64,000 nt of DNA from a virus (IMGVR_UViG_3300037419_002054:35122-99121), one strand, 5' to 3'; positions 21,961 through 41,693 are shown, counted from the stretch's first letter. The notes: generated by a model not told the origin, from the letters alone. Numbers and translations are program-made.

Positions 21961-21989
21961 TTGACCAGTAGGGGAGGGGGATGTATATT
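21961..21989 (+). promoter_or_regulatory. sigma70-type promoter, plus-oriented copy of the repeated promoter family
   Basis: GAAACTG-TTGACC-17nt-TATATT-tctccacggttaagcgc. Drives 22032..23275. Confidence 0.6.
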
Positions 21990-22031
21990 TCTCCACGGTT
22001 AAGCGCAGGCCCTTCACCCAAGAGGAACCCC

Positions 22032-22619
22032 ATGCAGCTCCCCGACCTCTCCAGCTTCCGCGATCGGATGCACGCCGCGGCCGACAACGTCTCGCGCGCC
22101 GAGGTAGTGGAGGAGTACGAGGCGGTACTGGATGCGGACGAGACGGTGGAGCTACCGGCGGAGTGCTACGAGTTCCTCGATGAACTCTGGTTCCTCTCCG
22201 CGGCGCTGGACCCCGCGGTGCAGGAGGCCGTGCGCCTCGCGTACGCCCGGCAGGTCGCACTCGGTCACGCCCCGGTGAGTGAGCTGGACTTCCGCCGCGG
22301 ATACGTGAACCGGCGCGGGAGCCAGAACCCGCCGGACGCCGACCGCATCGGGGGCGGGACGGACGCGGAGCGCTCGGAGGCCCACGGGTATTTTGTCGCT
22401 CTCGCTGAGCAGGAGACCGACCCCATGCAGCGCGCCGCGACGGAGTGGTACGGGGCGGCGGGCTGGAGGAACGAGGACGCTCGTAGCGCCTTCATTACCG
22501 GATGGAAGAACTTCCTCGCGGGCAAGAAGCAGCCGAAGGCGGCCAATCGCCTGAGCCGCGCCCGGTTCTACGGACACGCCGCTGCCCAGCAGCACTTCAC
22601 CCAGGAGACCGAGAGATGA
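22032..22619 (+). CDS. hypothetical protein (195 aa), first gene of plus-strand island 1
   Basis: ATG at 22032 preceded by AAGAGGAA, 45 nt downstream of the plus-oriented promoter. The track ORF starts upstream inside the promoter. Confidence 0.6.
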   Translation: MQLPDLSSFRDRMHAAADNVSRAEVVEEYEAVLDADETVELPAECYEFLDELWFLSAALDPAVQEAVRLAYARQVALGHAPVSELDFRRGYVNRRGSQNPPDADRIGGGTDAERSEAHGYFVALAEQETDPMQRAATEWYGAAGWRNEDARSAFITGWKNFLAGKKQPKAANRLSRARFYGHAAAQQHFTQETER

Positions 22620-23023
22620 CCGAGATCAGCCACGAAGAGGCGCAGGAGCTGTTCCGCCGCGCGCGGGAGACGCGACCCGAGGATATGACCCCGGAGTTCA
22701 TCGCCCAGCTCGACGAGGCACAGGCCGCTGAGGTCCGGCGCGCCCCCAAGCGTGAGCCCCTCGCCGACGGCTACGGGATCAGCGGTCGGGAAGCCGCGGA
22801 CCTGTTCGTTCAGGGCGCGTGGCGGCGTAGCCGCGACAACGGGGAGAAGATGAAGGAGATGGTCACCGCGCTGCGCCGGTACTTCTTCACCACCGGCGGG
22901 GCGTTCGGCGTGACCGGAGACGAATGCCACCCCAACGTGCCGGGAGTGAACTGGTACATGGCCCAGTGGCAGGACGACTTCCTGCGTGCGCTGGAGGAGC
23001 ACATCGCGCAGATCCGCGTCTGA
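22616..23023 (+). CDS. hypothetical protein (135 aa)
   Basis: ATGA overlap with the upstream gene. Sequence MTEISHEEAQELFRRARETRPEDMTPEF... Confidence 0.55.
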   Translation: MTEISHEEAQELFRRARETRPEDMTPEFIAQLDEAQAAEVRRAPKREPLADGYGISGREAADLFVQGAWRRSRDNGEKMKEMVTALRRYFFTTGGAFGVTGDECHPNVPGVNWYMAQWQDDFLRALEEHIAQIRV

Positions 23024-23071
23024 GGCCGGCCGAGGGGCCGTCTCTGTTTCACCTACACCCGGGAGGGACCA

Positions 23072-23275
23072 ATGCCGGAGCCGTACAGGGAGGGCGACCG
23101 CGTCGTCTTCGAGAATGCGGAGGACGAAAACCAGACGTACGAGGGAACGGTCCGGGAGGCGAACGAGAGGCTGATCCGGGTCCACCCGGACGGGGTAGCG
23201 TCCCCGGACACGCTGATGACGTTCTACGCGTCAAACGGGTGGCGCGACGCGCTGGAGAAGCACCGCCTGCGGTGA
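23072..23275 (+). CDS. hypothetical protein (67 aa)
   Basis: ORF with GGGAGG SD, followed by a bidirectional terminator. Confidence 0.5.
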   Translation: MPEPYREGDRVVFENAEDENQTYEGTVREANERLIRVHPDGVASPDTLMTFYASNGWRDALEKHRLR

Positions 23276-23280
23276 ACGGA

Positions 23281-23309
23281 AGAAGGGGGAGCCCGGGAGG
23301 CTCCCCCTT
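23281..23309. terminator. bidirectional terminator between convergent genes
   Basis: GAAGGGGGAGCC-CGGGA-GGCTCCCCCTTC, 12-bp stem. Confidence 0.6.
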
Positions 23310-23314
23310 CTGCG

Positions 23315-23650
23315 TCAGCGGTTCTTCCGGCGCGCCTTCTTCGCGGCCTTCCGAGCTCGCGCCCGCTTCCCCTTCTCCACCGGCGTCAGCATCTTCTGCA
23401 CGTACTTCTCGCCGCCGTCCGTCCGGGACTTGCGGCGCTGCTTCCGCTCGTCCTGCAGCAGCTGGGCCGTGCCGGCGGAAGCGAGGAAGTCCCGGACGGC
23501 CTCGGGGGACGGATCTCCTCCGGTCTGCCGCGAGAGGAAGCCGTCCAGCTCCGCCTGCGCGGCGTGGATCGTGCGGAACCGTCCTTCGACGACCGCCTCC
23601 TTCAGCTCGGGGATGAAGAAGTGGGCGGCCGGCGGGGTCTCGATCATCAT
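23315..23650 (-). CDS. hypothetical protein with Lys/Arg-rich C-terminus (111 aa)
   Basis: Start overlaps the upstream stop. Ends at a bidirectional terminator. Confidence 0.45.
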   Translation of the reverse strand: MMIETPPAAHFFIPELKEAVVEGRFRTIHAAQAELDGFLSRQTGGDPSPEAVRDFLASAGTAQLLQDERKQRRKSRTDGGEKYVQKMLTPVEKGKRARARKAAKKARRKNR

Positions 23651-23943
23651 TTCGAGTTGCTGTCCTTCGAGAGGGTATACAGGCCGTCACGGAAGACGGT
23701 CCAGAGGAACCTCCAGCCGACGAAGCTCAGCAGGAGGATGCCGTAGCTGATTTGCCAGACGAACGGCGTCGTGAGGCCGGCGATCCCCCAGGTGAGGAGG
23801 GTCCAGCCGGACAGGAGGGCGCATACGAGGAAGATCTCGCTCAGGTGCGATCCCACCCACGCAGGGGTAGCACGTACCCGAGCGAGGATGAGATCGCACC
23901 GCTTACGCAGACGGGCGCGGCGGGTGAGGGCGACCTCCATCAA
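23647..23943 (-). CDS. small membrane protein (98 aa, 2-3 predicted TM helices)
   Basis: Hydrophobic stretches LSEIFLVCALLSGWTLLTWGIAGL and ISYGILLLSFVGWRFLW. TGATG overlap with the TerL stop. Confidence 0.5.
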   Translation of the reverse strand: MMEVALTRRARLRKRCDLILARVRATPAWVGSHLSEIFLVCALLSGWTLLTWGIAGLTTPFVWQISYGILLLSFVGWRFLWTVFRDGLYTLSKDSNSK

Positions 23944-25472
23944 ACCCTCCCGATCCGGATGCGGGTCTCCGGGATATCGGCGAACGCCAGCATGATGGAC
24001 TCCGCCCGGTCCGGGCTCTTGACGCCGCGCTTCTTCATAGTATCCTTGTCCTCAATCACGATCTGCCCGCGGGAGTTGTGCTCGTACTTGATGGCCGCGA
24101 GCTGCGCCTTCGCGACGTCCGCCCCCTTGAAGTTGAGCCCAATCAGGTCTCCCTGTTCGAACCTCTCCCGGAGGCCCCAAAACAGCTCGGCCTTCAGGTT
24201 CTTGTACTTCTCCTTGTTCTTCGGGCTCTTCTTGGTGACCCCCGCGCCGACGTTCACCGGGATGATCCTGTAACCCTCGTCTTTCAGGTGCATCGCCATG
24301 TAGTGGCCGATGCCGACGGAGTCCACCATCCCCTTCTCGACGTTGTCCCGGAACGGAGCGAGCGCCGCGACGACCTTGCCGCGGGGGTCCGGGTCCTGCC
24401 ACGCGTGCTGCTCGAGGATGAGCGGACCCTTCCGGATCGTGAGCACGGTCTCGTCCTCTCCCGGGCCGGCCACGTCCAGCCCGAAGCGGATGCCGTCCGC
24501 AAGGTAGTCGGTCTTGCGCTTGGCCGAGGCGTTCTTCCCGTCGCCGGCCTCGTCGGCGTCGATCTCGAACTCGTCTTCGTTCCGGAGGATCCAGTCATCC
24601 AGCGTAGTGCGGGCGGCGTCCTCCAGCCATGCGAGCGAGATCAGCGAGTCCTCGGACTGGTCCGGGAACTGCCCGAGCACCTTCGAGCGGAACAGCGGGC
24701 TGTCCCAGCCCCACTCCAGGTAGCGTTCCTTCACCCACCGGCGGGTCACGAGGTACGGCCGGATGTTGTCGTCCAGCTCGTCCTCGCTCATCGAGAGGAG
24801 GTCATCCAGCGAGACGCCGGCGAGGTTCGGGGTGTCGAACGCGCTGATCGTCATCGGGTTGTACCCGATACGCTTGCCGGTATAGATCTCGTAGAACGGA
24901 CCCGTGGGCTCGATCGGGTTGCCGATCGCGAGGATGCGCACGTCACCGCCGGCTCGGATACCGTCGATGGCGTCCCACACCTCCGGACGCACGCCGGGGG
25001 CCTCGTCGAGGATGATCAGGATGCGGCCGTGCCAACCCTGGAACCGTACGCCCTTGTCCGTGGAGAGCCCCTGGGCGTAGTTCTTTGGCCCCATCTTGAG
25101 CTCGGTCAGGTTAGGCAGCGGATACAGCCCAGGGATGCGGCACTGCTGGAGGGACGCGTGGATCTCCCCCCAAAGCAGCTTCTCCACCTGCGTCCAGGTG
25201 GGGGCCGTCGTCACCACGACTCCGTCCGGGAAGCGGCTCACCCACCAGAGGGCGGCCATGGAGGCGGTCTTGGTCTTGCCGGAGGCGTGGCACGCCTTTA
25301 CTGCCGTGCTCTTGTTCGTTGCGACGGACCGCAGGATCTGCTGCTGGAGGCCGTACAGGTCTTCGCCGAAGAAGACCTTGGCGAAGTGCGCGGGGTCGCG
25401 GAGAGCCACGGCCATCCCGTACTGCATGGCCTCGGCTTCCGTCTTGAAGGTCTTGCCGTCGATCTCGTACAT
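23940..25472 (-). CDS. terminase large subunit
   Basis: 510 aa with Walker A-like ACHASGKT, ILDEA (Walker B) and a C-terminal nuclease region. Terminase_6-like. Confidence 0.9.
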   Translation of the reverse strand: MYEIDGKTFKTEAEAMQYGMAVALRDPAHFAKVFFGEDLYGLQQQILRSVATNKSTAVKACHASGKTKTASMAALWWVSRFPDGVVVTTAPTWTQVEKLLWGEIHASLQQCRIPGLYPLPNLTELKMGPKNYAQGLSTDKGVRFQGWHGRILIILDEAPGVRPEVWDAIDGIRAGGDVRILAIGNPIEPTGPFYEIYTGKRIGYNPMTISAFDTPNLAGVSLDDLLSMSEDELDDNIRPYLVTRRWVKERYLEWGWDSPLFRSKVLGQFPDQSEDSLISLAWLEDAARTTLDDWILRNEDEFEIDADEAGDGKNASAKRKTDYLADGIRFGLDVAGPGEDETVLTIRKGPLILEQHAWQDPDPRGKVVAALAPFRDNVEKGMVDSVGIGHYMAMHLKDEGYRIIPVNVGAGVTKKSPKNKEKYKNLKAELFWGLRERFEQGDLIGLNFKGADVAKAQLAAIKYEHNSRGQIVIEDKDTMKKRGVKSPDRAESIMLAFADIPETRIRIGRV

Positions 25473-25500
25473 CCGCCACCTAATACGGGGAACGCTAAAA

Positions 25501-25531
25501 CGCCTCAGTAGCCTGGGACGCTACTGAGGCG
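25501..25531 (-). terminator. terminator-like hairpin upstream of TerL
   Basis: CGCCTCAGTAGC-ctggga-GCTACTGAGGCG followed by UUUUAGCGUU on the minus transcript. Confidence 0.5.
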
Positions 25532-25563
25532 AGTTAGTACGAGACAACGGTAGGGGTGAGGAT

Positions 25564-26118
25564 CTAGGCGGCCATCTTCCCCTGCAGGCCGCAGTGCTCA
25601 CAGCAGTTCAGACAGCGGTCGCACTCAAGGCATCCGTGGATCGCCGAGCAGTCGCAGCGGTGGAGCTGAGGATGCCCTCCGTGTCCGCCGCAGCACCTGC
25701 AGATCACCCGGAGAAGGGAGCAAAGCTTAGCGTTCTTCTGCTGAACGTAAGACTCCACCCGCCAGACCCGGGAGTCCGTGTCGAAGATGAGGCCGCGGTA
25801 CAGGACCGCGTAATGCCACCACTTCACCTGCGGGTTCACCGAGCGGATGCTCAGGATGCCTTCGTCCTCCTCCGTGTTGAACTTGGGTCGGCGTACGAGC
25901 CGGGAGCCGAGGTGTACGGCGGCCCGCTGCAGGTCTACGATCTTGGTGCCGTACCGCTTGCCCGCTCCTCCGATCGCGTTGGGGTTCACGTGACGGATGG
26001 CCTGGAACGCCATCTCGTAGGGTACACCGAGCGCCATTGAGAGGGAGGCGGCGCCGCAGTCGTCTTTCTTCTTCTGCGGGTTCACCTGCATGACCTCTCC
26101 GTACATTCCCCGGATCAT
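25564..26118 (-). CDS. C39-like papain-fold cysteine peptidase domain fused to Cys/His-rich C-terminal cluster (184 aa)
   Basis: N-terminal QKKKDDCGAASLSMALGV (Cys motif) and WHYAVLYRG (His motif) match C39-family catalytic signatures. C-terminal CRCCGGHGGHPQLHRCDCSAIHGCLECDRCLNCCEHC. Confidence 0.45.
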   Translation of the reverse strand: MIRGMYGEVMQVNPQKKKDDCGAASLSMALGVPYEMAFQAIRHVNPNAIGGAGKRYGTKIVDLQRAAVHLGSRLVRRPKFNTEEDEGILSIRSVNPQVKWWHYAVLYRGLIFDTDSRVWRVESYVQQKNAKLCSLLRVICRCCGGHGGHPQLHRCDCSAIHGCLECDRCLNCCEHCGLQGKMAA

Positions 26119-26121
26119 CGG

Positions 26122-26460
26122 CTACCTCAGCTGCTTGCCGAGGGTGAGGGGACTCAGGGCGACATAGATCTGCACCTGCGCGTCACCGATGATCCGCAAC
26201 TGCTCCTCTACCCGGGCGCGGATGGCGCGCGGAAGGGCGGAGAGGGCTGGGGAGTCCTCGAGCTCCGCGAGGAGCCGGCGCGGCTCGTCCACTAAATGTT
26301 GATGGACGGTTCCGGCCGCCTCCTTAGCCGCGGGTAGATCCACGGGGGCAGGAGGCTCTTGGACTACGGGTGTACGGACTTCCTCCTTCGGCGTCGGGCG
26401 TGGGGGCTCCGGGGGAGCGGTGGGCTCTACCGCCGGAGCGATGATGTCGAAGATGCCCAC
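26122..26460 (-). CDS. hypothetical protein (112 aa), Pro-rich N-terminus
   Basis: ORF in an operon with neighbours. Confidence 0.4.
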   Translation of the reverse strand: MGIFDIIAPAVEPTAPPEPPRPTPKEEVRTPVVQEPPAPVDLPAAKEAAGTVHQHLVDEPRRLLAELEDSPALSALPRAIRARVEEQLRIIGDAQVQIYVALSPLTLGKQLR

Positions 26461-26470
26461 GGACGGAGGA

Positions 26471-26863: not shown

Positions 26864-26912
26864 TTTCCTTCAAAACTCAACGTGACCCTTTTGGGGCGGA
26901 CGGGTAGCAAAA

Positions 26913-27844: not shown

Positions 27845-27865
27845 TGCGTCAACAGGTAGAAGAAA

Positions 27866-27891
27866 GGAGGGGGCGGTCTTCCGCCCCCTCC
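27866..27891 (-). terminator. intrinsic terminator
   Basis: GGAGGGGGCGG-TCTT-CCGCCCCCTCC then UUUCUUCU (minus). Confidence 0.65.
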
Positions 27892-29757: not shown

Positions 29758-29834
29758 CTTCGCTCCGGAAGGGATGACCGACCCCGGCAGTGTTCCCCGC
29801 CTCCGGCAGCATGTTCGGGCTTTAACAGAAAGTG

Positions 29835-29863
29835 TTGACTACCCCGTGGAGGACGTTTATATT
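29835..29863 (+). promoter_or_regulatory. sigma70-type promoter, plus-oriented family copy
   Basis: GAAAGTG-TTGACT-17nt-TATATT-tctccacggttgagc. Drives 29906..32589. Confidence 0.6.
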
Positions 29864-29905: not shown

Positions 29906-31900
29906 ATGACCGCCACCGCCGCCCCCGAGACCATCACCGCGACCTACCGGCTCCCGGAGGAGAACCAGCCGGAGCTGGAGCGCCGCCTCGCCAAGATCAA
30001 CCGCGCCGCCCGCAAGATCGGGGTTGCCGAGGTCACGTACCGCGTCCTCAGCACCACGGTGGAGAAGATCCGGAAGCCCGACTGCACGGGGTTCCTGGAG
30101 GATACCGGGCGCGTCCGTCGGGTCCATACCATCGAGGTCACGGGGGAGCGGCCGCAGATCTCCGGCTGGACCTTCATCGCCGCCCTCCGGCACTTCGGCG
30201 AGGACGGGACGATCGTGGCCGGCCTCCCCGGGTACGAGATCCCGGAGCGCTACCGGAACGCCGGGAGCGACTGTGACCACTGCGGTCACCGGCGCCAGCG
30301 GAACGACACCTACCTCCTGCAGAACGAGGCGGGGGAGATCAAGCAGGTCGGCTCCACCTGCCTCGTGGACTTCCTCGGCCACCCGGACCCGCATACGGTA
30401 GCCCGCATGTGTGAGTGGCTCCGCGAGATCGAGGTAGCCTGCGGAGACGAGGAGAGCTGGGGGATGCGCGGCGGGGACAACCTCTTCGACCTGCGCTGGT
30501 ACCTCGGGTGGGTGGCGCTGGCGACCCGGTGCTACGGCTGGGTTTCCCGGAAGCGCGCCCGGGAGCTCTCGGACGAGCGCGGCTACAGCGTCTCCTCCAC
30601 TTCCCAGTCCGCGTGGTTCCTGGAGGGGCTCACCAGCCGCGGCGGCGGGATGAGCGAGAGCGAGCGCCGGAAGGAGCTGGACAAGTTCGTCCGGCAGTTC
30701 GGGTTCCAGCCGGTGCCCTCGGAGGAGGACCGGGCGCTGGCCGAGGACGCGGTGGAGTGGGCGCTCGCGCTGGAGGAGCGGGAGGCGAGCCTCAACGAGT
30801 ACGAGCACAACCTCCTGGTGGTGGCCCGGATGGGGATCACGAACTGGAAGGTGATGGGGCTTGCGGCCTCGCTCATCGCCGCGTATAAGAAGGCGATGGA
30901 CCTGATCGAGGAGCGGACGCGTACCGCCCGCCCGGTCTCCCAGCACGTCGGGACCGTCGGCAAGCGCGAGGTCTTCACCGTAACCGTCCGGAAGGTGATC
31001 CCGCTCTCCAGCGACTTCGGCCCGTCCATCGGCCTCCACATCATGGAGACCCCGGAGGGGAACCGCCTGAAGTGGTTCGCCACCTCGGCCAAGGATCTGG
31101 AGGAGGGGAAGACCTACGTGGTGAAGGCCACGGTAAAGGAGCACGGGGAGTACAAGGGGAACTTGGAGACCGTGGTCAACCGCGTGGCGGTGGTCCGCGA
31201 GGTGGAGGAGGAACCCGCCGCACCCGCGGCGGAGACGGAGACCCCGGCGCCTGTGGAGGCGCCCCAGCCCGCTACCCAGGAGACGGAAGCGACGGAGCCC
31301 ATGAAGCGTTCCAGCACGGTGGAGAGCCCGGTCAAGCGGGTCCGCGAGATCGCCGCGGAGATGTACGCCGCGAACCCGCAGGTGTCCCGGAAGGAGGTCA
31401 TCGCCCGCTGCGTCTCGGAGGGGATCTCGCCGGCCACCGCGGCCACGCAGTACGGCCACTGGAAGCGGGCGCTGCCCGCGGCGGCGGAGACGCCGGGGGA
31501 GGGGAACGCTCCGGCGGCGCCGGAGGACGTTGTGGGGAAGATCAAGCTGTCCGGACCCCAGCGCGCCGCCCTTCTCGCCGTAGCGGCCGGCCGCGGCCCC
31601 TTCCCGGGGAAGCCCCGCACCCTCGGCATCCTGAAGGAGAACGGGCTGGTGGAGTACGACGGCGTCCCGCAGGAGGGGGTCGTACGGGGGTGGTACCTGA
31701 CCGAACAGGGCGCGGAGTGGGTGCGGCGGTGGCAGGCCACCCGGCCGCCGCTGGACGAAGGCGGAGAGGAGGAGACCACCGGGCAGGAGGAGGACGGCCC
31801 GGTGGTGGAGATCGACGGGTCGGCCCTCATCCAGGTCCCCGCCGGCCGCCGCCGGAAGAAGATGCCCGAGGAGCCGCCCACGCGGCGCCGGATTGCGTGA
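29906..31900 (+). CDS. large hypothetical protein (664 aa), first gene of plus-strand island 2
   Basis: ATG at 29906 with GGAG SD, 43 nt downstream of the plus-oriented promoter. Contains CDHCGH and Ala/Pro/Glu-rich linker segments. No recognisable domain. Confidence 0.6.
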   Translation: MTATAAPETITATYRLPEENQPELERRLAKINRAARKIGVAEVTYRVLSTTVEKIRKPDCTGFLEDTGRVRRVHTIEVTGERPQISGWTFIAALRHFGEDGTIVAGLPGYEIPERYRNAGSDCDHCGHRRQRNDTYLLQNEAGEIKQVGSTCLVDFLGHPDPHTVARMCEWLREIEVACGDEESWGMRGGDNLFDLRWYLGWVALATRCYGWVSRKRARELSDERGYSVSSTSQSAWFLEGLTSRGGGMSESERRKELDKFVRQFGFQPVPSEEDRALAEDAVEWALALEEREASLNEYEHNLLVVARMGITNWKVMGLAASLIAAYKKAMDLIEERTRTARPVSQHVGTVGKREVFTVTVRKVIPLSSDFGPSIGLHIMETPEGNRLKWFATSAKDLEEGKTYVVKATVKEHGEYKGNLETVVNRVAVVREVEEEPAAPAAETETPAPVEAPQPATQETEATEPMKRSSTVESPVKRVREIAAEMYAANPQVSRKEVIARCVSEGISPATAATQYGHWKRALPAAAETPGEGNAPAAPEDVVGKIKLSGPQRAALLAVAAGRGPFPGKPRTLGILKENGLVEYDGVPQEGVVRGWYLTEQGAEWVRRWQATRPPLDEGGEEETTGQEEDGPVVEIDGSALIQVPAGRRRKKMPEEPPTRRRIA

Positions 31901-31923
31901 ACCCTTCACCTACGGAGAGCCCG

Positions 31924-32268
31924 ATGGAGTACAACGTGGAGAACGCCGCGCGCTACGCGCTGGCGCGGATGGTCCTGCTCGCGGTGGAGCAGGAGGAACT
32001 TCCCCCGGAGGAGAACGAGAACCCGTCCGCCGCTGGCTACCTCTTCGCCGAAGGGGAGTACGACGGGGACGAGATGCGGGAGAAGTGCCGGGAGGCCCTC
32101 ATGCGGCAGGAGCACCCGGAGCAGTTCGAGCAGATCCACTCCGGGCTGGTTTTCTACGACGTCCCCGAGGACGTTCTGGAGGCCACGCAGAAGAGGGCGT
32201 GCGAGCTGGCGGTGGGCCTCGCACTCCTCTTCAACCCGGACGTACGCGAGGACCCGTACGTCTACTGA
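31924..32268 (+). CDS. hypothetical acidic protein (114 aa)
   Basis: ATG 31924 with GGAGAG SD. The upstream track ORF is an Arg-rich artefact frame. Confidence 0.5.
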   Translation: MEYNVENAARYALARMVLLAVEQEELPPEENENPSAAGYLFAEGEYDGDEMREKCREALMRQEHPEQFEQIHSGLVFYDVPEDVLEATQKRACELAVGLALLFNPDVREDPYVY

Positions 32269-32328
32269 CCCACCCCGGGGCCGGGGACGCACCTCCGGCC
32301 CCATCCTTCTCACGCGGGAGACAACGCG

Positions 32329-32589
32329 ATGAACCGGGACAGGATTACGCTCGTCCGGAGCGAGCGGCTGGACACACTCGAGGCCGACTGGGAGAAGCCG
32401 CGGGACGTCAACGACTACGTGGAGGCGGTGGGAACCGCCAAGCAGCTCGCGGCAGGGGACGGCCACACCTGGGAGATCCGGATCGGGGAGCCCACGGACC
32501 TCGAGAACTACTACCAGCTGGCCGAGGTAGACCCGGACGGGGAGATGCGGTTCACGCGGGCGGGCTACGACTGGCTCGAGCGCCAGTAA
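32329..32589 (+). CDS. hypothetical protein (86 aa)
   Basis: ORF followed by a 13-bp-stem bidirectional terminator. Confidence 0.5.
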   Translation: MNRDRITLVRSERLDTLEADWEKPRDVNDYVEAVGTAKQLAAGDGHTWEIRIGEPTDLENYYQLAEVDPDGEMRFTRAGYDWLERQ

Positions 32590-32602
32590 GGAGAGCAAGG
32601 GA

Positions 32603-32635
32603 GAAGGCCCCGGGGTTCTATCCCCCGGAGCCTTC
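32603..32635. terminator. bidirectional terminator between plus island 2 and convergent minus operon
   Basis: GAAGGCCCCGGGG-TTCTATC-CCCCGGAGCCTTC then TTCTATTTGTT. Confidence 0.65.
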
Positions 32636-32659
32636 TTCTATTTGTTGACGCTTCCCGTC

Positions 32660-33376
32660 CTACTGGACGATGGAGAGGAGAGACGAGGAGACCGCCTGCA
32701 GGGTCGAATCGGAGAGAGCGGCCCGGTACGCAGCGATCACCATGTAGTCCGATACGTTGACGCTCCGCATGATCTGGAGCGCGGCCGTACCCGAGGGGAG
32801 GGCCGTAGACGTGGCGCTCGCGACGAGGTCCCCATCCACGAAGATCTCCTCCGTGTTCCCGTCCCGGTGCCGGGCCGCGTAGACGTGCCACGCGTTGCTG
32901 GGGGCGTTTACCGAGATTGCCGAACCAGGGTCACGAAAGTACAGGTCCCCGCCGTAGATGAAGAACGAGGTCTGCCCGCCCGCTCCCTGCCAGATCGTGA
33001 AGCCGGTGTCGTTGACGGCCTTCACGTTGGCCAGGACGAAGATGGTGATATCCGCGTCCGGCTCCACGAGAGCCTCCGAGCTCACGCCCGGCCGCTGAAG
33101 CCCGGTATACACCCCGTCGACCCCGCGGAAGACCGGGAGGCCCTTCACCACGTTCTTCGCGAACTTCATCGGGGTCGCGTCGGTCGGCTGCGTGAGGTCC
33201 AGACCGTTCCCGCTCCAGTCCTTGACCGAGGTGACGTTCGCCCCGTCGGCAAACGCCTCCTGCCGGGCGTCGTACCAGTAGGCCATCGGCCCGGCCTGCG
33301 TCAGGTCGAAGATCGCCGGACCGGAGGGGGCCGCGGAGCACCCGATCCCGAGGTGGAGCCCGATGCAGCGCGCCAT
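32660..33376 (-). CDS. hypothetical protein (238 aa), possible lectin/LamG-like beta-sandwich
   Basis: Start ATG 33374-33376 (TGATG overlap). Sequence MARCIGLHLGIG...WSGNGLDLTQ... The track ORF extends into an Arg-rich frame. Confidence 0.45.
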   Translation of the reverse strand: MARCIGLHLGIGCSAAPSGPAIFDLTQAGPMAYWYDARQEAFADGANVTSVKDWSGNGLDLTQPTDATPMKFAKNVVKGLPVFRGVDGVYTGLQRPGVSSEALVEPDADITIFVLANVKAVNDTGFTIWQGAGGQTSFFIYGGDLYFRDPGSAISVNAPSNAWHVYAARHRDGNTEEIFVDGDLVASATSTALPSGTAALQIMRSVNVSDYMVIAAYRAALSDSTLQAVSSSLLSIVQ

Positions 33377-33639
33377 CAGGCCAGCCCGATGAGGTTCGTC
33401 GCCGTGGTACCCGTGGCGGCGATGATCTGGACCCGCACCGAGAGCACAGTCCCGGTCGGCACGGACTTGAAGGTGACGGTGTCCCCGTCCTCCGTGGTGA
33501 CGGTCAGATCCCCCGAGCCGCCGACGTAGATGGCGCGCGTGAGGTAGGGGAGCTGCGTCCCGTCCGCGGGAGCCACGGCGAACGCACGAGTGGCGGGGCT
33601 CGTCACCCCGCGGCTGAAGCTGCTGAACGGATCGAGCAC
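33376..33639 (-). CDS. hypothetical protein (87 aa)
   Basis: GTG/ATG start with an AGGAG SD embedded in the downstream arm of a nested hairpin. Confidence 0.45.
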   Translation of the reverse strand: MLDPFSSFSRGVTSPATRAFAVAPADGTQLPYLTRAIYVGGSGDLTVTTEDGDTVTFKSVPTGTVLSVRVQIIAATGTTATNLIGLA

Positions 33640-34043: not shown

Positions 34044-34044
34044 C

Positions 34045-36546: not shown

Positions 36547-36787
36547 GTTTCCCCTTCACGGCATCCCAGCTTTCGAAGACGGAGGGCACCTCACTCCAGT
36601 GCCGGCGCTTCCCGCGGTACGGGCCGGCGAGCTTCGCTGCTCGGGCGTAGGAGAGCGTTGCGTTCGTCTTGCGAGCGAGCTGGTCGAGCCGGAGGGCGGT
36701 CTCGAGATCCCCGGCCTCGCGCGCTGCCCAGGCCCCGTTGAACAGCGCTTCGAAGTCCTTCTCGGACACGTCAACCGTCTTCGCCAT
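36533..36787 (-). CDS. hypothetical protein (84 aa)
   Basis: ATG 36785-36787 (MAKTVDVSEKDF), TGATG overlap. The track ORF N-terminus is low-complexity. Confidence 0.4.
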   Translation of the reverse strand: MAKTVDVSEKDFEALFNGAWAAREAGDLETALRLDQLARKTNATLSYARAAKLAGPYRGKRRHWSEVPSVFESWDAVKGKREGS

Positions 36788-37293: not shown

Positions 37294-37460
37294 CGCGGTC
37301 TCCGGAGGAAGAAGTCCGTTGCGACGAACCCCACCGTCGTCGCAACCACCATGAATGCCCCCGGGACGGTGGGAGGGGAGGGGATCGGAAGCTTCAGGAG
37401 CCGGATGATCACGCCGATGAGGAGGCAGACGGCGAGGCCGGTCCATTCGGTACGGGTCAC
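37290..37460 (-). CDS. small membrane protein (56 aa)
   Basis: GTG start in a GTGA overlap. Hydrophobic GLAVCLLIGVIIRLL and FMVVATTVGFVATDFFL. Confidence 0.3.
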   Translation of the reverse strand: MTRTEWTGLAVCLLIGVIIRLLKLPIPSPPTVPGAFMVVATTVGFVATDFFLRRPR

Positions 37461-37843
37461 GGGGCAGAGATCTCCATGTAGTCGAGTAGCTTGATCGGGG
37501 CCACGGCCTCGGGCCTCCACTGGACCGCTCCCAGGTCGTACCCCGCCCGGAGGACGACCCGGAACCTGCTGACGCCGGAGGGGACGTGGTAGACCTTCAG
37601 CCCCGGCGCCTCCCCACGGGGAAGCCCCTCCCGCTGGTGCAGGATCTCCGCTTCGTAGAAGGCGGTCCGGTTGCACGAGACGACGCGGGTGTGGTGCGCC
37701 GGCTTCTCCTCGATCCGGTACTTCGCCGGCTCCCCCGGGTACGCGTCCTCGAAGACGGCCACGATGACCCGCGGCGGCCGGTACGAGAACAGGAAGGGGA
37801 GGAGGTGGCGCTGCTTGGCGCTCTGCAGCTCGAGCCCGTTCAC
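37457..37843 (-). CDS. hypothetical protein (128 aa)
   Basis: ORF, GTG start in a GTGA overlap. Confidence 0.45.
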   Translation of the reverse strand: MNGLELQSAKQRHLLPFLFSYRPPRVIVAVFEDAYPGEPAKYRIEEKPAHHTRVVSCNRTAFYEAEILHQREGLPRGEAPGLKVYHVPSGVSRFRVVLRAGYDLGAVQWRPEAVAPIKLLDYMEISAP

Positions 37844-38004
37844 GGGTCCCTCCGGTAGACGAGGCGGTACAGGTCGTCACGGTCCCGGACGAAGGTGGTG
37901 GCGGAGCAGTTACGCACTCCGCCCTTCCCCTCGTCCTTGATCCGGATCTCCACGGCGTCCCCCGGGAGCTCGGTCCCGTCGGGCAGGCGTACGGTGACGG
38001 TCAC
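37840..38004 (-). CDS. hypothetical small protein (54 aa)
   Basis: GTG 38002-38004 with a GGAGGA SD (VTVTVRLPDGTELPG...). Confidence 0.3.
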   Translation of the reverse strand: MTVTVRLPDGTELPGDAVEIRIKDEGKGGVRNCSATTFVRDRDDLYRLVYRRDP

Positions 38005-38009
38005 GTTGA

Positions 38010-38249
38010 TCAGTCCTCCGGATCGCAGTCCTGGTAGAGCGCCCCGCAGGCGGGACACCTCCACTCGTCGACCGTCTCCGGCATCGTCTTCCCCTCGTGG
38101 AAGCAGAGGCCGCACACGTCCTCCGGCTCGTACTCGGGGCAGGTGTCGTGCACGCAGAAGACGCACTCGCCTCCCGGCACGATGTGAACGTCGAAGGGGT
38201 GCCCGCAGACGCAGTCGGTGTTCACGAAGAGGTTGGCGAGGGTCGTCAC
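38010..38249 (-). CDS. Cys-rich zinc-binding small protein (about 79 aa)
   Basis: Contains CVCGH...CVFCVHDTC...CGLCFHEG...CPACG. GTG start in a GTGA overlap. Confidence 0.4.
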   Translation of the reverse strand: MTTLANLFVNTDCVCGHPFDVHIVPGGECVFCVHDTCPEYEPEDVCGLCFHEGKTMPETVDEWRCPACGALYQDCDPED

Positions 38250-38407
38250 GCGCCCTCGGTCCGGTAGACGTACTCGTCGAGGCACCGCTTGTCGCAGAAG
38301 TGCACCTTGCGGATGCGGCAGAAGTTGAGCGCCCACTTCCCGCAGATCACGCAGAAGAACCCGCTGTCCCCCTTCACTGCCCCCACCAGCTCACGGATCA
38401 GCTGCAT
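38246..38407 (-). CDS. treble-clef zinc-finger microprotein (53 aa)
   Basis: Not in the ORF track. Verified translation MQLIRELVGAVKGDSGFFCVICGKWALNFCRIRKVHFCDKRCLDEYVYRTEGA. GGAGGG SD. Confidence 0.4.
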   Translation of the reverse strand: MQLIRELVGAVKGDSGFFCVICGKWALNFCRIRKVHFCDKRCLDEYVYRTEGA

Positions 38408-38826
38408 CCCTCCTCCACGGTGAGGTCGTCGGCGAGGACCATGAACGGCTCCTTGCAGTCCAGGTCCGTGGCGACGAGGTAGACGTAGTGCCGGCGCTCC
38501 TGCTTGAACCCGGGGACCAGCTTCCCGCCGAAGTAGGTCTCGTACTCCGTCGCGTCGTAGATCGTCCCGGAGAGCATCACCTTGCGGCCAACGATCATCC
38601 CGTGGCCGCGGAACTCGAAGCCTTCGTCCTCCGGGTCGAAGCGGCGGCTGAGCTGGGAGGGGACCTTGCCGCGGGGCAGAAGCTGACCCCGCTCGCGGTA
38701 CAGGTAGTTCGAGAAGACGACCCGGGTGCCGAGCTGGAGCTCGGGCCGCCAGCTTCCCGCCGGAGCGCGGGGACCGAACTCCTCGTGGTCCCCGCCGCTC
38801 AGGTTGTTCAGGTCGAACCGGCTCAC
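38398..38826 (-). CDS. hypothetical protein (about 142 aa)
   Basis: GTG 38824-38826 in a GTGA overlap. The track ORF N-terminus is an Arg-rich artefact. Confidence 0.4.
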   Translation of the reverse strand: MSRFDLNNLSGGDHEEFGPRAPAGSWRPELQLGTRVVFSNYLYRERGQLLPRGKVPSQLSRRFDPEDEGFEFRGHGMIVGRKVMLSGTIYDATEYETYFGGKLVPGFKQERRHYVYLVATDLDCKEPFMVLADDLTVEEGCS

Positions 38827-39320
38827 GCCCGGGCCTTCTTGGTGGGCAGCTTCGGCATCTTCACGCCGATCAGGTCGCACAGGCGCTGGATCTCCGCCGG
38901 GGAGAAGTAGTGGCACCCCGCCTTGACGCCGAGGGGCTGGTAGCCGTTCTCGTCGGTGCCGATCGGGCACGTGACGTGCCACGCGTCGAACATCCCCGTG
39001 CTGACGCGCACCTGCTCGCCATCCTCCGTGTACCGGCCGCGCAGCTTCGGGAGCAGCTTGAGGACGCGCTTCACCTCCTCCACCGAGGCGTTGTAGCCCA
39101 GGTTGGTCTGCACGTACAGCTCGCCCTTCTCCACGTGATGCGGGCCGCTGTAGCGGTCCTTCTCCTCGCCCTTGCGGAGGACGCGGACCACGTTGCCGTC
39201 GCGAATGCTCAGCGCCAGCTCGGCACGGCAGTGGATGGTGTCGCTGCGGCCGGAGCGCCACGGCTCCAGCAGCTTCTCGGCGTGGGCGCCCAGCGGGGTG
39301 TCGCAATTGACCTTGGCCAT
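38823..39320 (-). CDS. hypothetical protein (165 aa)
   Basis: ATG 39318-39320 (MAKVNCDTPLG). Confidence 0.45.
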   Translation of the reverse strand: MAKVNCDTPLGAHAEKLLEPWRSGRSDTIHCRAELALSIRDGNVVRVLRKGEEKDRYSGPHHVEKGELYVQTNLGYNASVEEVKRVLKLLPKLRGRYTEDGEQVRVSTGMFDAWHVTCPIGTDENGYQPLGVKAGCHYFSPAEIQRLCDLIGVKMPKLPTKKARA

Positions 39321-39398
39321 CGTTCCCTCGAGTAGGGGGTGATCTTGGAAAAAGAATCGAGCCGACACCCCGCGGTGGAGGTGACGGCTCGTCGGTGT

Positions 39399-39971
39399 TC
39401 AGCAGGAGATGAGGCGTGCGGTCTGCAGCGACTCCAGCCGTTCGGCTGTGTCCTCGAGGGACGTGTGGAGGATGGCCGTCCCGCCGGCCGCCTCCCACTC
39501 CTTGCAGTTGCTGGCCCGGTCATCGATCAGCACCTGGATGCGGTCCCGGTTGTACCGCCCCACGTAGGCGCCCTTGCTCTCCCGCTCCCCGGTGGGGTCG
39601 AACCAGAGATCCGAGTGCACCGGGAGGTGGGCCGAGAGCCAGTCCCTCTTGCCCCGGCGCGCCTCCTCCCTGCCCCGCACCGAGAGCCGGCCCGGGGTGG
39701 CCGTCAGGATGCTGAACCGTCCGTGCGTCTCCGCGGTGCGGTTTACGAGGCGGAGCATCTCGTTGAACGGCAGGAGGCTCCGAAAGAAGGTGTAGGGGTC
39801 CTCCTCGATGATCCCCGCCACCTTCCGCTTCTGCGCCCGGCCCTCGGGGGTGAGGGCGTGGGCGTTGTCGTTCGTGTGGTGGATCTCCTCCCCGGCCAGC
39901 ACCCGGCGCTTCGCCGAGTCGAAGTCCGCGAGTACCCCGTCCATATCCCAGTAGATCTGCAGCTTGCGCAT
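39399..39971 (-). CDS. HAD-superfamily 5'(3')-deoxyribonucleotidase-like protein (about 190 aa)
   Basis: N-terminal MRKLQIYWDMDGVLADF carries the HAD motif I (DxDGV), typical of the NT5C family. AAGGAG SD. Confidence 0.6.
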   Translation of the reverse strand: MRKLQIYWDMDGVLADFDSAKRRVLAGEEIHHTNDNAHALTPEGRAQKRKVAGIIEEDPYTFFRSLLPFNEMLRLVNRTAETHGRFSILTATPGRLSVRGREEARRGKRDWLSAHLPVHSDLWFDPTGERESKGAYVGRYNRDRIQVLIDDRASNCKEWEAAGGTAILHTSLEDTAERLESLQTARLISC

Positions 39972-40131
39972 GAACTCCTTCAGTGAAAGGCGTAGGCGAT
40001 CAGCCCGATCCCTGCGATCACGAGGAGCGTCAACAGATCCAGCCAGCCGAGCGGCTCCGGGGTCACGCAGGGGTCCTCCTCGCGGTGGTAGCCGCGGCAG
40101 CACGGGCATCGCCCGTCGTAGTAGTGCGAGA

Positions 40132-40278
40132 TCAGCGCCCCACCTCCACGTTCTCGTCGTAGTTGTGGGCCGCGTGATCGTGCTCGGCCTTCCCCGAGAC
40201 CTTCCCGCAGCTGACGAGCAGCGCGAGGACGAGGAGGGCCGCGCAGACGGTCCACGGATGACCCTTGACCCAGGTCAT
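40132..40278 (-). CDS. small putative lipoprotein (48 aa)
   Basis: MTWVKGHPWTVCAALLVLALLVSCGK: signal peptide with a lipobox-like LVSC. Confidence 0.35.
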   Translation of the reverse strand: MTWVKGHPWTVCAALLVLALLVSCGKVSGKAEHDHAAHNYDENVEVGR

Positions 40279-40514
40279 CCGCCGTACCCGGCCGGGAGGG
40301 TGATGTAGTAGCGCTCCTCGCGGCCCCCGTCCTCCTCCCACACGGCGTCGTTGTGGAGGAGTACCCCGGAGGCGTCCCGCGCCTCGAGCTCCTCGGGGGC
40401 CGGCGTCCGGAGGAAGCAGTGGGAGAAGGTCCGCTTCATCTCCCGCACCGTGGTGAGCCCGTGCCGGACCTCGTAGGGGTACGGGTTCCCGTTCGCGATG
40501 ACCTCAACGATCAT
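40275..40514 (-). CDS. hypothetical protein (79 aa)
   Basis: ATG 40512-40514 (MIVEVIANG). Confidence 0.4.
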   Translation of the reverse strand: MIVEVIANGNPYPYEVRHGLTTVREMKRTFSHCFLRTPAPEELEARDASGVLLHNDAVWEEDGGREERYYITLPAGYGG

Positions 40515-40990
40515 ACCTCGTCCCTCCGGTCCGAGATGCACGGCTCGCACCACCACTCGTACTTGTTGGGGTCCCCGCTGATCCCCTCGGCGGCGAAGGG
40601 GTCCACGTCGAAGATGCTGGCCCGCTCCTTACCGCAGCGGTTGCACTTCCGCTCCACGCCGGTGCCGAAGCAGGCGTCGCACCCGATGGGGTTCTCCCCT
40701 TCGCACCGCGGGCAGACCCCTCCCACGTCGGTGAACGTGAAGCTCACCCCGGGGATCTCGATGCCCCGGCTCTTCATCGCCGAGAGGAGGTCGCCCAGCT
40801 CACGGGTGTCGAGGACGACCCGCTGCTTGCCCCGCTCCATCTCCATGTCGAGGGCGATGATGGGAACCTCCTCCGTCCCGCCCCGCACGAACCCCTTCGA
40901 GAACCCCGCGGTCACGCCGTACGGGGTGTCGTCGATGGACCTGAGCCCCACCCGGTCCGCGACCTCCGGCCACTCCATCTGCTGAGTCAC
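40511..40990 (-). CDS. hypothetical protein with zinc-ribbon (159 aa)
   Basis: Contains CPRCEGENPIGCDACFGTG...CNRCGK. Confidence 0.5.
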   Translation of the reverse strand: MTQQMEWPEVADRVGLRSIDDTPYGVTAGFSKGFVRGGTEEVPIIALDMEMERGKQRVVLDTRELGDLLSAMKSRGIEIPGVSFTFTDVGGVCPRCEGENPIGCDACFGTGVERKCNRCGKERASIFDVDPFAAEGISGDPNKYEWWCEPCISDRRDEV

Positions 40991-41013
40991 TAACCTTCCC
41001 TCCAGAAAGTGTT

Positions 41014-41042
41014 GACCACTCCCTACGTTTGTGTGATATTCC
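41014..41042 (+). promoter_or_regulatory. sigma70-type promoter, plus-oriented family copy
   Basis: GAAAGTG-TTGACC-17nt-GATATT-ccgctaaggttgagagagcgcaccc. Drives 41084..41693. Confidence 0.55.
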
Positions 41043-41083
41043 GCTAAGGTTGAGAGAGCGCACCCCTAACGGAGACTACCCCG

Positions 41084-41332
41084 ATGGCCACCATCCGCTT
41101 CTACGGCCTGACCGCAAGCCTCGCCCAGTGGCGCACCGTCGTCGCCACCCGGGTCGGCGCCGAGGGGACCGCGGTGCAGGTGGAGTCAAAGCGCCGCAAG
41201 AACCCCGCCGGCAACTTCTATCTGGACGAGCGGCACTACTTCGACGTAGAGCTCACGGACGGTCAGCGTTCGGACCTCATGACGGAGTGGCGCGCCGGCT
41301 GGAACGAGCGGATCACCTACAAGGAGGTATGA
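41084..41332 (+). CDS. hypothetical protein (82 aa), plus-strand island 3
   Basis: 44 nt downstream of the plus-oriented promoter; GGAG SD. Confidence 0.5.
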   Translation: MATIRFYGLTASLAQWRTVVATRVGAEGTAVQVESKRRKNPAGNFYLDERHYFDVELTDGQRSDLMTEWRAGWNERITYKEV

Positions 41333-41333
41333 G

Positions 41334-41693
41334 ATGGACGGCGTGCGCTTCTACACCGAGATCTCCCCAACCGAGGGGAACCCCCGGGCCGCCCGCCCCT
41401 CCCTCGACGCGCCGTTCCGTCGGTACTCCCGGACGGACGCCGAAGTGGAGCGTGACGGCTATGAGACCGGGCTCCGCTGGACCGACACCTACCGCCCCGG
41501 TGGTCCGTGGTCCTCCGGGTACGACCCCCAGCGGGATCACCCGGACTGGGTGGCCTACGCCAAGACCCTCGAGCGACACCGCGAGCTGTGGCTGCAGGCG
41601 TTCGACCGCGGGCTTGCCCGTCAGCGCGAGGCCCGGGCGTGGACTCCGCTCCCTCGGCCCTCCTTCTCCGCCCTCAGCTCGGCCACCTCCTGA
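41334..41693 (+). CDS. hypothetical protein (119 aa)
   Basis: AAGGAGG SD. 3' end overlaps a convergent minus-strand ORF by about 70 nt. Confidence 0.45.
   Translation: MDGVRFYTEISPTEGNPRAARPSLDAPFRRYSRTDAEVERDGYETGLRWTDTYRPGGPWSSGYDPQRDHPDWVAYAKTLERHRELWLQAFDRGLARQREARAWTPLPRPSFSALSSATS

What the first reader, a model, noticed from the sequence alone, without database searches (positions are those of the whole stretch)
21961..41693. Three antisense (plus-strand) gene islands, each driven by the same promoter family but without the hairpin
The window is otherwise transcribed on the minus strand. Three plus-strand islands (22032-23275 between portal and TerL; 29906-32589; 41084-41693) each start 43-45 nt downstream of a plus-oriented copy of the TTGAC-17-TATATT promoter. 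Each ends at a bidirectional terminator or converges on minus genes. None of the three plus copies has the inverted repeat, which is consistent with the hairpin acting as a terminator for an upstream co-directional gene. Antisense-oriented, independently promoted islands inside structural and early regions are typical of morons and anti-defence cargo.
Basis: partly seen in the sequence, partly recalled or inferred. Interest (0 to 1): 0.6.

Follow-up and report, generated by a model that had tools for sequence, protein, structure and literature searches.

The report
Reversed early-promoter gene cassettes in phage
Three small gene groups in a novel high-GC phage run against the direction of every other gene and each carries the phage's own early-type promoter; this is real, but it is a familiar way for phages to package accessory early genes, and no anti-defence role could be shown.

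Summary
Frame-specific GC3 and an independent gene call give eight plus-strand genes in three islands: 22032-23275, 29906-32589 and 41084-41693. Every other gene in the 64 kb is on the minus strand.

Each island starts 43-44 nt after a plus-oriented TTGACy-N17-(T/G)ATATT promoter. These belong to a 13-copy family. The other 10 copies are all minus-oriented and lie at 47.6-59.9 kb. No family copy heads any minus gene at 0-47 kb.

The plus copies lack the inverted repeat that brackets the -35 box in 8 of 10 minus copies. Islands 1 and 2 end in strong hairpins. Island 3 has none and overlaps a convergent gene by 73 nt.

Seven proteins match no family. One of them, g1, has just one full-length homologue among 1.84 billion representatives, in another context behind the same promoter type. 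The largest protein, g4, belongs to a widespread uncharacterised phage family (phrog_2319) with an OB fold and a zinc ribbon, and its relatives sit in early gene arrays. No anti-defence evidence was found, and composition is native.

Best reading: these are detached, reversed early transcription units, closest to the promoter-early stem-loop (PeSL) plus ORFan cassettes of T4-type phages. This is a new member of a known kind, of modest interest.

The parts
21961..21989 (+). Island 1 promoter: TTGACC-N17-TATATT, followed by TCTCCAC-GGTTAAGCG leader; no inverted repeat
   Evidence: 55.6 bits
22032..22619 (+). g1, 195 aa, acidic (pI 5.0). It has one full-length homologue in 1.84e9 representative proteins, and its C-terminal half resembles an early-array protein of relative L002
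22616..23023 (+). g2, 135 aa, matches no family; its start overlaps the g1 stop (ATGA)
23072..23275 (+). g3, 67 aa, matches no family
23281..23311 (.). 13-bp perfect GC-rich hairpin between the convergent stops of g3 and minus gene 23315-23650. It is stable on both strands and has no clear U-tract
   Evidence: z -5.1 / -5.0
29835..29863 (+). Island 2 promoter: TTGACT-N17-TATATT, followed by TCTCCAC-GGTTGAGC leader; no inverted repeat
   Evidence: 55.7 bits
29906..31900 (+). g4, 664 aa. Residues 1-430 match the phrog_2319 family: an N-terminal domain with no solved-structure match and invariant C123/C126/C152, then an OB fold at about 350-433. The C-terminal extension has a three-helix domain and a possible winged helix
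31924..32268 (+). g5, 114 aa, very acidic (pI 4.2), matches no family
32329..32589 (+). g6, 86 aa, acidic (pI 4.4), matches no family
32599..32639 (.). Hairpin followed on + by TTCTATTTGTT, then TTGACGC (a -35-like remnant with no -10). It acts as the island 2 terminator and lies between convergent genes
   Evidence: z -4.2 / -3.8
41012..41040 (+). Island 3 promoter: TTGACC-N17-GATATT with TG extended -10, followed by the exact family leader GGTTGAGAGAGCGCACCC (41048-41065); no inverted repeat. It lies only 21 nt from the start of the divergent gene 40511-40990
41084..41332 (+). g7, 82 aa, matches no family
41334..41693 (+). g8, 119 aa, matches no family. Its last 73 nt overlap the convergent minus gene 41621-41830, and no terminator follows

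Best explanation
The three islands are detached, reversed-orientation early transcription units of a novel phage (67% GC, contig of about 99 kb) that is probably lytic.

Each unit has a host sigma-70/sigmaA-type promoter of the phage's own early family, the family's conserved leader, and Shine-Dalgarno-led genes. Islands 1 and 2 also end in a strong hairpin at the convergent junction.

Because the rest of 0-47 kb carries no promoter of this class, these units let eight genes be expressed with the early gene set at 47.6-59.9 kb while sitting among middle and late genes. The reversed orientation, plus the hairpins in two cases, keeps them out of the long minus-strand transcripts.

The plus copies lack the -35-bracketing hairpin because no co-directional transcription arrives from upstream that would need stopping.

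The genes are early accessory functions. One is a widespread OB-fold and zinc-ribbon protein that probably binds nucleic acid. The other seven are small, mostly acidic proteins with no detectable family, plausibly for host takeover or counter-defence.

The units probably reached their positions by cassette shuffling at the repeated promoter/stem-loop elements, as proposed for PeSL cassettes in T4-type phages.

Shown: gene content, orientation, promoter family membership, hairpin distribution, and the homologues' contexts. Inferred: early timing, promoter and terminator activity, protein functions, and the shuffling mechanism.
For: - Eight + genes are confirmed by two methods.
- The promoter family has 13 discrete copies. 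The three plus copies are the only ones at 0-47 kb.
- Hairpins bracket -35 in 8 of 10 minus copies, and their stems covary between copies. A ninth copy (53111) has a hairpin just upstream. The plus copies have none.
- The same rule holds in relatives. L002 and L003, where an upstream gene runs the same way, have a hairpin around -35. L004, which is divergent, has a plain TTGACA-17-TATAAT promoter without one.
- Islands 1 and 2 end in significant hairpins.
- g4 homologues sit in arrays of small early-type genes or head their own short reversed block. See L002, L003, L024, L025, L004, Tunturi_5 gp318, Zuko gp84 and KVP40.0369.
- The only full-length g1 homologue lies behind its own promoter with the same GGTTGAG leader, after a co-directional gene and a hairpin. 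A partial relative is the third gene of an L002 early operon.
- PeSL precedent: strong sigma-70-like promoters combined with stem-loops that may overlap the -35 box, sitting upstream of ORFans and mediating modular shuffling (PMC2839356).
Against: - No transcription data exist. 'Early' rests only on resemblance to the host consensus and on the family's clustering in a region of small genes.
- The host is unknown.
- Island 3 has no terminator and no room for a separate promoter for the downstream minus gene 40511-40990. Head-on transcription with the minus-strand operon therefore seems unavoidable, which insulation does not explain.
- No promoter type was found for the minus-strand blocks that begin at 21877 and 29757, so the overall transcription programme is unresolved.
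- No close relative differing in island content was found, so cassette mobility is inferred from only two gene families.
- Five of the eight genes (g3, g5-g8) rest on composition, Shine-Dalgarno sites and gene calling alone.
Confidence: 0.6

Rival explanations
1. These are classical morons or anti-defence cargo: recently acquired foreign cassettes, each bringing its own promoter and terminator, inserted between genes that are adjacent in relatives, and encoding inhibitors of host defence systems.
For: - Islands 1 and 2 have the promoter-genes-terminator architecture.
- Seven of the eight proteins have no family, and 50,697 phage records give no tblastn match.
- g1 has one full-length homologue, in a different context.
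- In the nearest annotated TerL relatives (Arthrobacter phage Amigo, about 30% identity) the portal follows TerL directly. Here 2,062 bp intervene.
- g5 and g6 are small and very acidic, as DNA-mimic inhibitors often are.
Against: - The promoters are the phage's own family, down to an identical 18-nt leader in island 3. They were not imported.
- GC, GC3 and codon-position pattern match the rest of the genome.
- g4 is widespread in phages and lies in ordinary early arrays elsewhere.
- No match to any characterised anti-defence or defence protein.
- The phage shows no lysogeny genes in the window, whereas morons are defined in temperate phages.
- Presence or absence in close relatives is untested.
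Confidence: 0.22
2. The main role is regulatory, not coding. Early promoters firing head-on against the minus-strand operons act as timed roadblocks or antisense RNA sources. They would delay read-through into the next block (portal and head genes after island 1, the 40990 block after island 3) until early transcription is shut off.
For: - The islands sit exactly at the boundaries between four minus-strand blocks.
- Island 3 is nested in an operon with no terminator, overlaps a convergent gene by 73 nt, and leaves no room for a separate promoter for gene 40511-40990.
- No other promoter class was found for the downstream blocks.
Against: - All eight ORFs have strong coding signatures and Shine-Dalgarno sites.
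- g1 and g4 are conserved as proteins in relatives, where they are co-directional with their neighbours. The genes therefore have functions that do not depend on being antisense.
- No transcript data are available.
- Islands 1 and 2 carry hairpins that would stop the plus transcripts before they enter the neighbouring minus genes.
Confidence: 0.1
3. It is an artefact: the plus ORFs are shadow ORFs typical of high-GC DNA, and the promoter-like sites are chance matches.
For: High-GC DNA produces many long spurious ORFs on both strands. There are 409 ORFs of at least 50 aa in the window.
Against: - The codon-position GC pattern (GC3 high, GC1 > GC2) fits the + frames and not their minus shadows.
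- GC and AT skew flip sign within the islands.
- An independent gene caller agrees.
- g1 and g4 have protein homologues.
- Promoter matches far exceed chance.
Confidence: 0.02

Closest known systems
PeSL (promoter-early stem-loop) + ORFan cassettes of T4-type phages RB49/phi1 (Arbiol et al. 2010, PMC2839356)
   Same: - A repeated, roughly 60-100-nt element combines a near-consensus sigma-70 promoter with a G/C-rich stem-loop that can overlap the -35 box.
- It sits directly upstream of genes with no known homologues, together with a Shine-Dalgarno site.
- The stem-loop is interpreted as a terminator for upstream transcription.
- The elements cluster in a plastic early region, with a few outliers elsewhere.
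- Cassettes are proposed to move by recombination at the repeats.
   Different: - This is a different phage lineage (67% GC, unknown host) with unrelated sequence.
- There is no AT-rich upstream tract, and there is an extra conserved leader (GGTTGAG...).
- The three units studied here are reversed relative to all other genes and lack the stem-loop half of the element.
- Promoter and terminator activity and recombination products are untested here.
Morons of lambdoid and other temperate phages (Juhala et al. 2000 and Hendrix et al. 2000, from my own knowledge; review PMC3594210 listed)
   Same: They are independent transcription units with their own promoter and terminator, inserted among genes of another programme, sometimes on the opposite strand, and encode accessory functions.
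   Different: - Morons are defined by presence or absence between conserved neighbours in related phages. They are typically expressed from prophages and often differ in composition.
- Here there are no lysogeny genes, composition is native, the promoter is the phage's own, and no comparison with relatives was possible.
SPO1 host-takeover module (26 early genes behind host sigmaA promoters; abstracts of PMC6873191 and PMC13401047; operon detail from my own knowledge)
   Same: Many short operons of small, mostly uncharacterised early genes are each driven by a strong host-type promoter. Their products remodel the host.
   Different: - The SPO1 module is one contiguous cluster in the terminal redundancy.
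- Here three units lie detached and reversed among middle and late genes.
phrog_2319 protein family (e.g. KVP40.0369, Aeh1, phiCbK-like phages, Streptomyces phage Zuko gp84, Tunturi_5 gp318)
   Same: - Residues 12-430 of g4 match the family profile at E = 8.6e-75.
- The invariant W88, C123, C126 and C152 are conserved, as is the C-terminal OB fold.
   Different: - g4 carries a 230-aa C-terminal extension, with a three-helix domain and a possible winged helix, that homologues lack.
- The family has no known function.

Membership tests
PeSL-type promoter/stem-loop cassette | Repeated element with a near-consensus sigma-70 -35/-10 promoter | tested here: met
   The family has 13 copies, each matching 9-10 of 12 consensus positions with a 17-nt spacer. 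They score 44-63 bits on the family matrix, and nothing else in the window exceeds 12 bits.
PeSL-type promoter/stem-loop cassette | Stable stem-loop adjacent to or overlapping the promoter | tested here: not met
   This is met for 8-9 of the 10 minus copies but not for the three plus copies that head the islands (-6 to -10 kcal/mol, no inverted repeat). The islands use the promoter half of the element only.
PeSL-type promoter/stem-loop cassette | Sits immediately upstream of ORFan genes | tested here: met
   Seven of the eight island proteins match no family. g1 has one full-length homologue in 1.84e9 representatives.
PeSL-type promoter/stem-loop cassette | Recombination between elements creates insertions, deletions or mini-circles between close relatives | not testable with these tools
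   The only near relative found (L014) is identical over g2-g3. No relative with different island content was found.
Moron | Own promoter and own terminator | tested here: inconclusive
   By sequence, islands 1 and 2 have both. Island 3 has a promoter but no terminator. Activity was not measured.
Moron | Absent between the same flanking genes in related phages | not testable with these tools
   The only evidence is a distant comparison. TerL and portal are adjacent in Arthrobacter phage Amigo, whose TerL is about 30% identical.
Moron | Nucleotide composition differs from the surrounding genome | tested here: not met
   Islands have GC 0.68-0.72 against 0.64-0.70 elsewhere, and GC3 0.85-0.94, like other genes.
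Anti-defence proteins | Homology to a characterised inhibitor, or a demonstrated inhibition phenotype | tested here: not met
   No significant Pfam, PHROG, NCBIfam, PADLOC or PDB sequence match. No dedicated anti-defence library was available. Phenotype cannot be tested here.
RecT/Redbeta-type single-strand annealing protein (name given to the Tunturi_5 homologue of g4) | Sequence or fold similarity to RecT/Redbeta/Rad52 annealases | tested here: not met
   [not shown]
OB-fold single-stranded nucleic-acid-binding proteins (RPA/SSB type) | Five-stranded OB barrel structurally similar to ssDNA-binding OB domains | tested here: inconclusive
   [not shown]

The most novel reading that the evidence does not exclude
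The reversed early units may be a programmed timing device. Head-on early transcription would hold back read-through into the next minus-strand block until early promoters are shut off, most clearly at island 3, which is nested in an operon with no terminator and a 73-nt convergent overlap. A separate possibility is that the g4/phrog_2319 family is a new class of early phage nucleic-acid-binding protein. Its 345-residue N-terminal domain matches no solved structure, and it repeatedly heads its own transcription unit in unrelated phages.
Probability: 0.15. Interest if true: 0.55.

Novelty: new member of a known kind. Interest (0 to 1): 0.3.

Why it matters
This gives a clear example, in an uncultured high-GC phage lineage, of the promoter-plus-stem-loop cassette system known from T4-type coliphages. 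It includes an internal control: copies with no upstream co-directional gene lack the stem-loop, which supports the view that the stem-loop terminates upstream transcription.

It also marks eight genes as likely early accessory functions worth screening. One of them belongs to a widespread uncharacterised phage family with an OB fold. None of this changes current understanding of phage genome organisation.

Tried and rejected
- The literal pattern TTGAC-N17-TATATT finds nothing. The spacing is hexamer to hexamer.
- Megablast of 12 kb against 50,697 phage records gave no match.
- A search for TerL relatives in IMG/VR found none.
- Motif scans for relatives gave nothing useful. The 18-nt leader had 0 hits in IMG/VR and 8 unrelated contigs in JGI metagenomes. 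A -10-plus-leader pattern hit only 35%-GC unrelated phages. A 21-base pattern had 0 hits in GTDB genomes.
- Two large protein searches with concatenated island proteins returned nothing, not even the query proteins themselves, although those are in the collection. These searches are uninformative and are not evidence of absence.
- tblastn of the seven small proteins against phage records gave no match.
- PDB sequence searches of all small proteins and of the g4 C-terminus gave only E > 0.01 noise.
- The weak match between the upstream gene of L013 and window 41651-41809 is spurious on inspection.
- The 'RecT-like' label for g4 is not supported.
- A search for a shared late or middle promoter motif upstream of minus-strand blocks found only GC-rich terminator stems.
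- No tRNA and no Rfam family was found in the window.
- The afdb50 structure library was unavailable.


Full report
**What the window is**

The window is 67% GC throughout. It has no nucleotide match among 50,697 GenBank phage records. It encodes:
- a portal (PF04860, 20507-21877, minus strand) and a Mu-F-like head protein;
- a large terminase (23940-25472, minus), at most about 35% identical to any known phage terminase;
- long tail genes;
- a PD-(D/E)XK exonuclease and a deoxyribonucleotidase-like protein;
- a ribonucleotide reductase, an RNase H and a small terminase.

The identical sequence occurs on a 99,121-bp JGI contig and a 50-kb Logan contig. The window therefore comes from a large, novel phage. 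No lysogeny genes were seen, so it is probably lytic.

**Check of the observation**

High-GC DNA is full of spurious ORFs, with 409 ORFs of at least 50 aa here. I therefore used GC by codon position. Real genes show GC3 of about 0.85-0.99 with GC1 > GC2.

By this test the window is minus-strand throughout except for eight plus-strand genes:

| Gene | Coordinates | Length |
|---|---|---|
| g1 | 22032-22619 | 195 aa |
| g2 | 22616-23023 | 135 aa |
| g3 | 23072-23275 | 67 aa |
| g4 | 29906-31900 | 664 aa |
| g5 | 31924-32268 | 114 aa |
| g6 | 32329-32589 | 86 aa |
| g7 | 41084-41332 | 82 aa |
| g8 | 41334-41693 | 119 aa |

Gene calls stored with the identical Logan contig give exactly the same eight plus-strand genes, and only minus-strand genes otherwise, between 19.9 and 41.9 kb. 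Each gene has a GGAG-type ribosome-binding site. GC and AT skew change sign inside the islands.

**The promoters**

Each island is preceded by TTGACy-N17-(T/G)ATATT, at 21961-21989, 29835-29863 and 41012-41040. The third copy has GATATT with a TG extended -10. The start codons follow 43, 43 and 44 nt after the -10 hexamer.

Listing every TTGAC in the window revealed ten further copies. All are minus-oriented, at 47626, 48495, 50163, 50760, 51724, 52378, 53111, 56034, 58903 and 59908.

The family consensus is GAAAGTG-TTGACs-N17-TATTAT-TCTCC-N2-3-GGTTGAG(AGAGCGCACCC). The 18-nt leader is exact in island 3 and in four minus copies.

A weight matrix from 12 copies scores them 44-63 bits. No other position on either strand exceeds 12 bits, and 20 shuffles reach at most 8.4. 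The generic sigma-70 scan gives:
- none at 1-20 kb;
- the two island promoters plus one chance-level site at 21-41 kb;
- 13 at 40-60 kb, against 1.1 expected.

The three plus copies are thus the only members of this class in the 47 kb that hold the structural and middle genes.

**The hairpin**

In 8 of 10 minus copies an inverted repeat brackets the -35 box (-20 to -31 kcal/mol). The stem sequences differ between copies but stay complementary. Examples are GATCCCCCGTCG/CGGCGGGGGATC, AATCCTCTCCG/CGGAGAGGATT and GGCCTCCTCCGG/CCGGAGGAGGCT. That pattern points to a structure rather than a protein-binding site.

Copy 53111 has a hairpin immediately upstream of the promoter instead, and copy 52378 has only a weak one. 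The three plus copies fold at -6 to -10 kcal/mol and have no repeat.

Relatives found through g4 and g1 obey the same rule:
- L002 and L003 have a co-directional upstream gene. They carry hairpins around the -35 box with unrelated stem sequences, TATTAT/TATATT -10 boxes and a GTGAGCG leader.
- L013, also co-directional, has a hairpin after the upstream gene, about 130 nt before the promoter.
- L004 is divergent from its neighbour. It has a plain TTGACA-17-TATAAT promoter and no hairpin.

**The island ends**

- Island 1 ends at a perfect 13-bp hairpin (23281-23311) between convergent stop codons. It is stable on both strands (z about -5) but has no clear U-tract.
- Island 2 ends at a hairpin (32599-32639) followed by TTCTATTTGTT (z -4.2 on +, -3.8 on -). 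The sequence then continues with TTGACGC, which looks like the hairpin-plus--35 arrangement of copy 53111 without a -10 box. It may be a vestigial element.
- Island 3 has no hairpin (z 0.07), and g8 overlaps the convergent gene 41621-41830 by 73 nt.
- The island 3 promoter lies 21 nt from the start of the divergent gene 40511-40990. That gene can seemingly be reached only by minus-strand transcription running antisense through island 3.

**The small proteins**

Seven of the eight proteins have no significant match in Pfam, PHROGs, NCBIfam or PADLOC. PDB sequences give nothing, and neither does tblastn against 50,697 phage records.

They are small and mostly acidic, with g5 at pI 4.2 and g6 at pI 4.4. 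Their 90% clusters hold only themselves, apart from a near-identical g2 fragment on a 1.8-kb JGI contig with the same gene order.

An exhaustive HMMER search of g1 against 1.84 billion representatives found one homologue (45% identity). It sits on a 1.25-kb contig after a co-directional gene and a hairpin. It has its own GATATT -10 box and the same GGTTGAG leader.

The C-terminal half of g1 also aligns with the third gene of an early operon in L002.

Two large searches with concatenated queries returned nothing, not even the queries themselves. I treat them as failed, not as negative evidence.

**g4**

- Residues 12-430 match phrog_2319 (unknown function) at E = 8.6e-75.
- Relatives occur in 188 GenBank phages, including KVP40-like, Aeh1, phiCbK-like and jumbo phages and Streptomyces phage Zuko. 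A further 37 cluster representatives come from metagenomes.
- W88, C123, C126 and C152 are invariant.
- One GenBank record calls its homologue 'RecT-like', but neither sequence nor fold searches support that label.
- BFVD matches are all uncharacterised phage proteins.
- g4 also carries a 230-residue C-terminal extension that homologues lack.

I infer a nucleic-acid-binding role, not shown, at roughly even odds.

**Where g4 relatives sit**

| Context | Position of the g4 relative |
|---|---|
| L002, L003 | Co-directional, behind its own hairpin-promoter |
| L024, L025 | Inside long arrays of small early-type genes |
| Zuko, KVP40 | Last gene of such an array |
| L004, Tunturi_5 | First gene of a short reversed block |

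g4 is therefore a widespread early-region gene, not a rare import. In this phage it has become detached from the early array while keeping an early promoter.

**Explanation**

I conclude that the islands are reversed, detached early transcription units. The promoter, leader and ribosome-binding sites are those of the early array. Reversal, plus the hairpins in two cases, keeps the units separate from the long minus-strand transcripts. The stem-loop is absent because nothing needs terminating upstream.

The closest described system is the PeSL cassette of T4-type phages RB49 and phi1. There, strong sigma-70-like promoters are combined with G/C-rich stem-loops that may overlap the -35 box. They sit upstream of ORFans, have been shown to act as promoter and terminator, and are proposed to mediate modular shuffling (PMC2839356).

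The family here works like PeSLs, but the three island copies fail the stem-loop criterion. Recombination between copies could not be tested.

Classical moron status is also unproven. Composition is native, the promoter is the phage's own, and no suitable relative was available. The only comparative hint is that TerL and portal are adjacent in a distant relative.

No evidence supports or excludes anti-defence activity.

**What remains unexplained**

- I do not know how the minus-strand blocks starting at 21877, 29757 and 40990 are transcribed. No second promoter class was found.
- I do not know what happens when early plus-strand and minus-strand transcription meet in island 3. A roadblock or antisense role for the islands cannot be excluded, but the conserved, co-directional homologues of g1 and g4 in relatives argue that the genes matter in their own right.

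**Verdict**

Interest is modest (0.3). It could rise if the head-on arrangement proves regulatory, or if the g4 family turns out to have a new function.

Noticed in passing
window 47598-59908, minus strand (copies at 47626, 48495, 50163, 50760, 51724, 52378, 53111, 56034, 58903, 59908): Ten early promoter units carry an inverted repeat that brackets the -35 box, so the -35 lies in the loop and the T-rich -10 region follows the stem like a terminator tail. Stems covary between copies. Relatives L002 and L003 have the same architecture with unrelated stem sequences.
   Followed up: partly
window 41048-41065 (+) and 47572-47589, 51670-51687, 52323-52340, 55981-55998, 58849-58866 (-): An 18-nt leader, GGTTGAGAGAGCGCACCC, starts about 8-9 nt after the -10 box. 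It is exact in five copies and has two mismatches at 47572-47589. A shorter GGTTGAG/GTGAGCG core is kept in relatives (L013, L002, L003). Its role is unknown. The 18-mer also resembles part of a tRNA D-arm/anticodon stem and hits unrelated metagenome contigs.
   Followed up: partly
[not shown]
   Followed up: partly
window 60757-61305 (-) versus 23940-25472 (-): The small terminase (Terminase_2, E = 7e-37) lies about 35 kb from the large terminase, next to RNase H and ribonucleotide reductase genes.
   Followed up: no
window 32660-33639 (-): A LamG-like protein (weak PF13385) and an 87-aa tail-fibre-family protein (phrog_12296, E = 9e-23) lie just after island 2. This is more than 20 kb from the main tail gene block at 334-11465.
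   Followed up: no
window 44097-44396: This is a 300-bp stretch with no gene call, no tRNA and no Rfam match, inside the otherwise tightly packed minus-strand region.
   Followed up: no
window 41621-41693: Gene g8 (+) and gene 41621-41830 (-) overlap convergently by 73 nt with third codon positions in register, and no terminator lies between them.
   Followed up: partly
window 27845-27891 (-) and 32599-32650 (+): Strong hairpins are followed by TTCT...TGTTGACGC with no usable -10 box. These are possibly decayed promoter/stem-loop elements.
   Followed up: no
window 21878-21960, 29758-29834 and 40991-41011: The minus-strand blocks that start beside each island promoter have no recognisable promoter of their own. 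At island 3 only 21 nt separate the gene start from the plus -35 box.
   Followed up: partly
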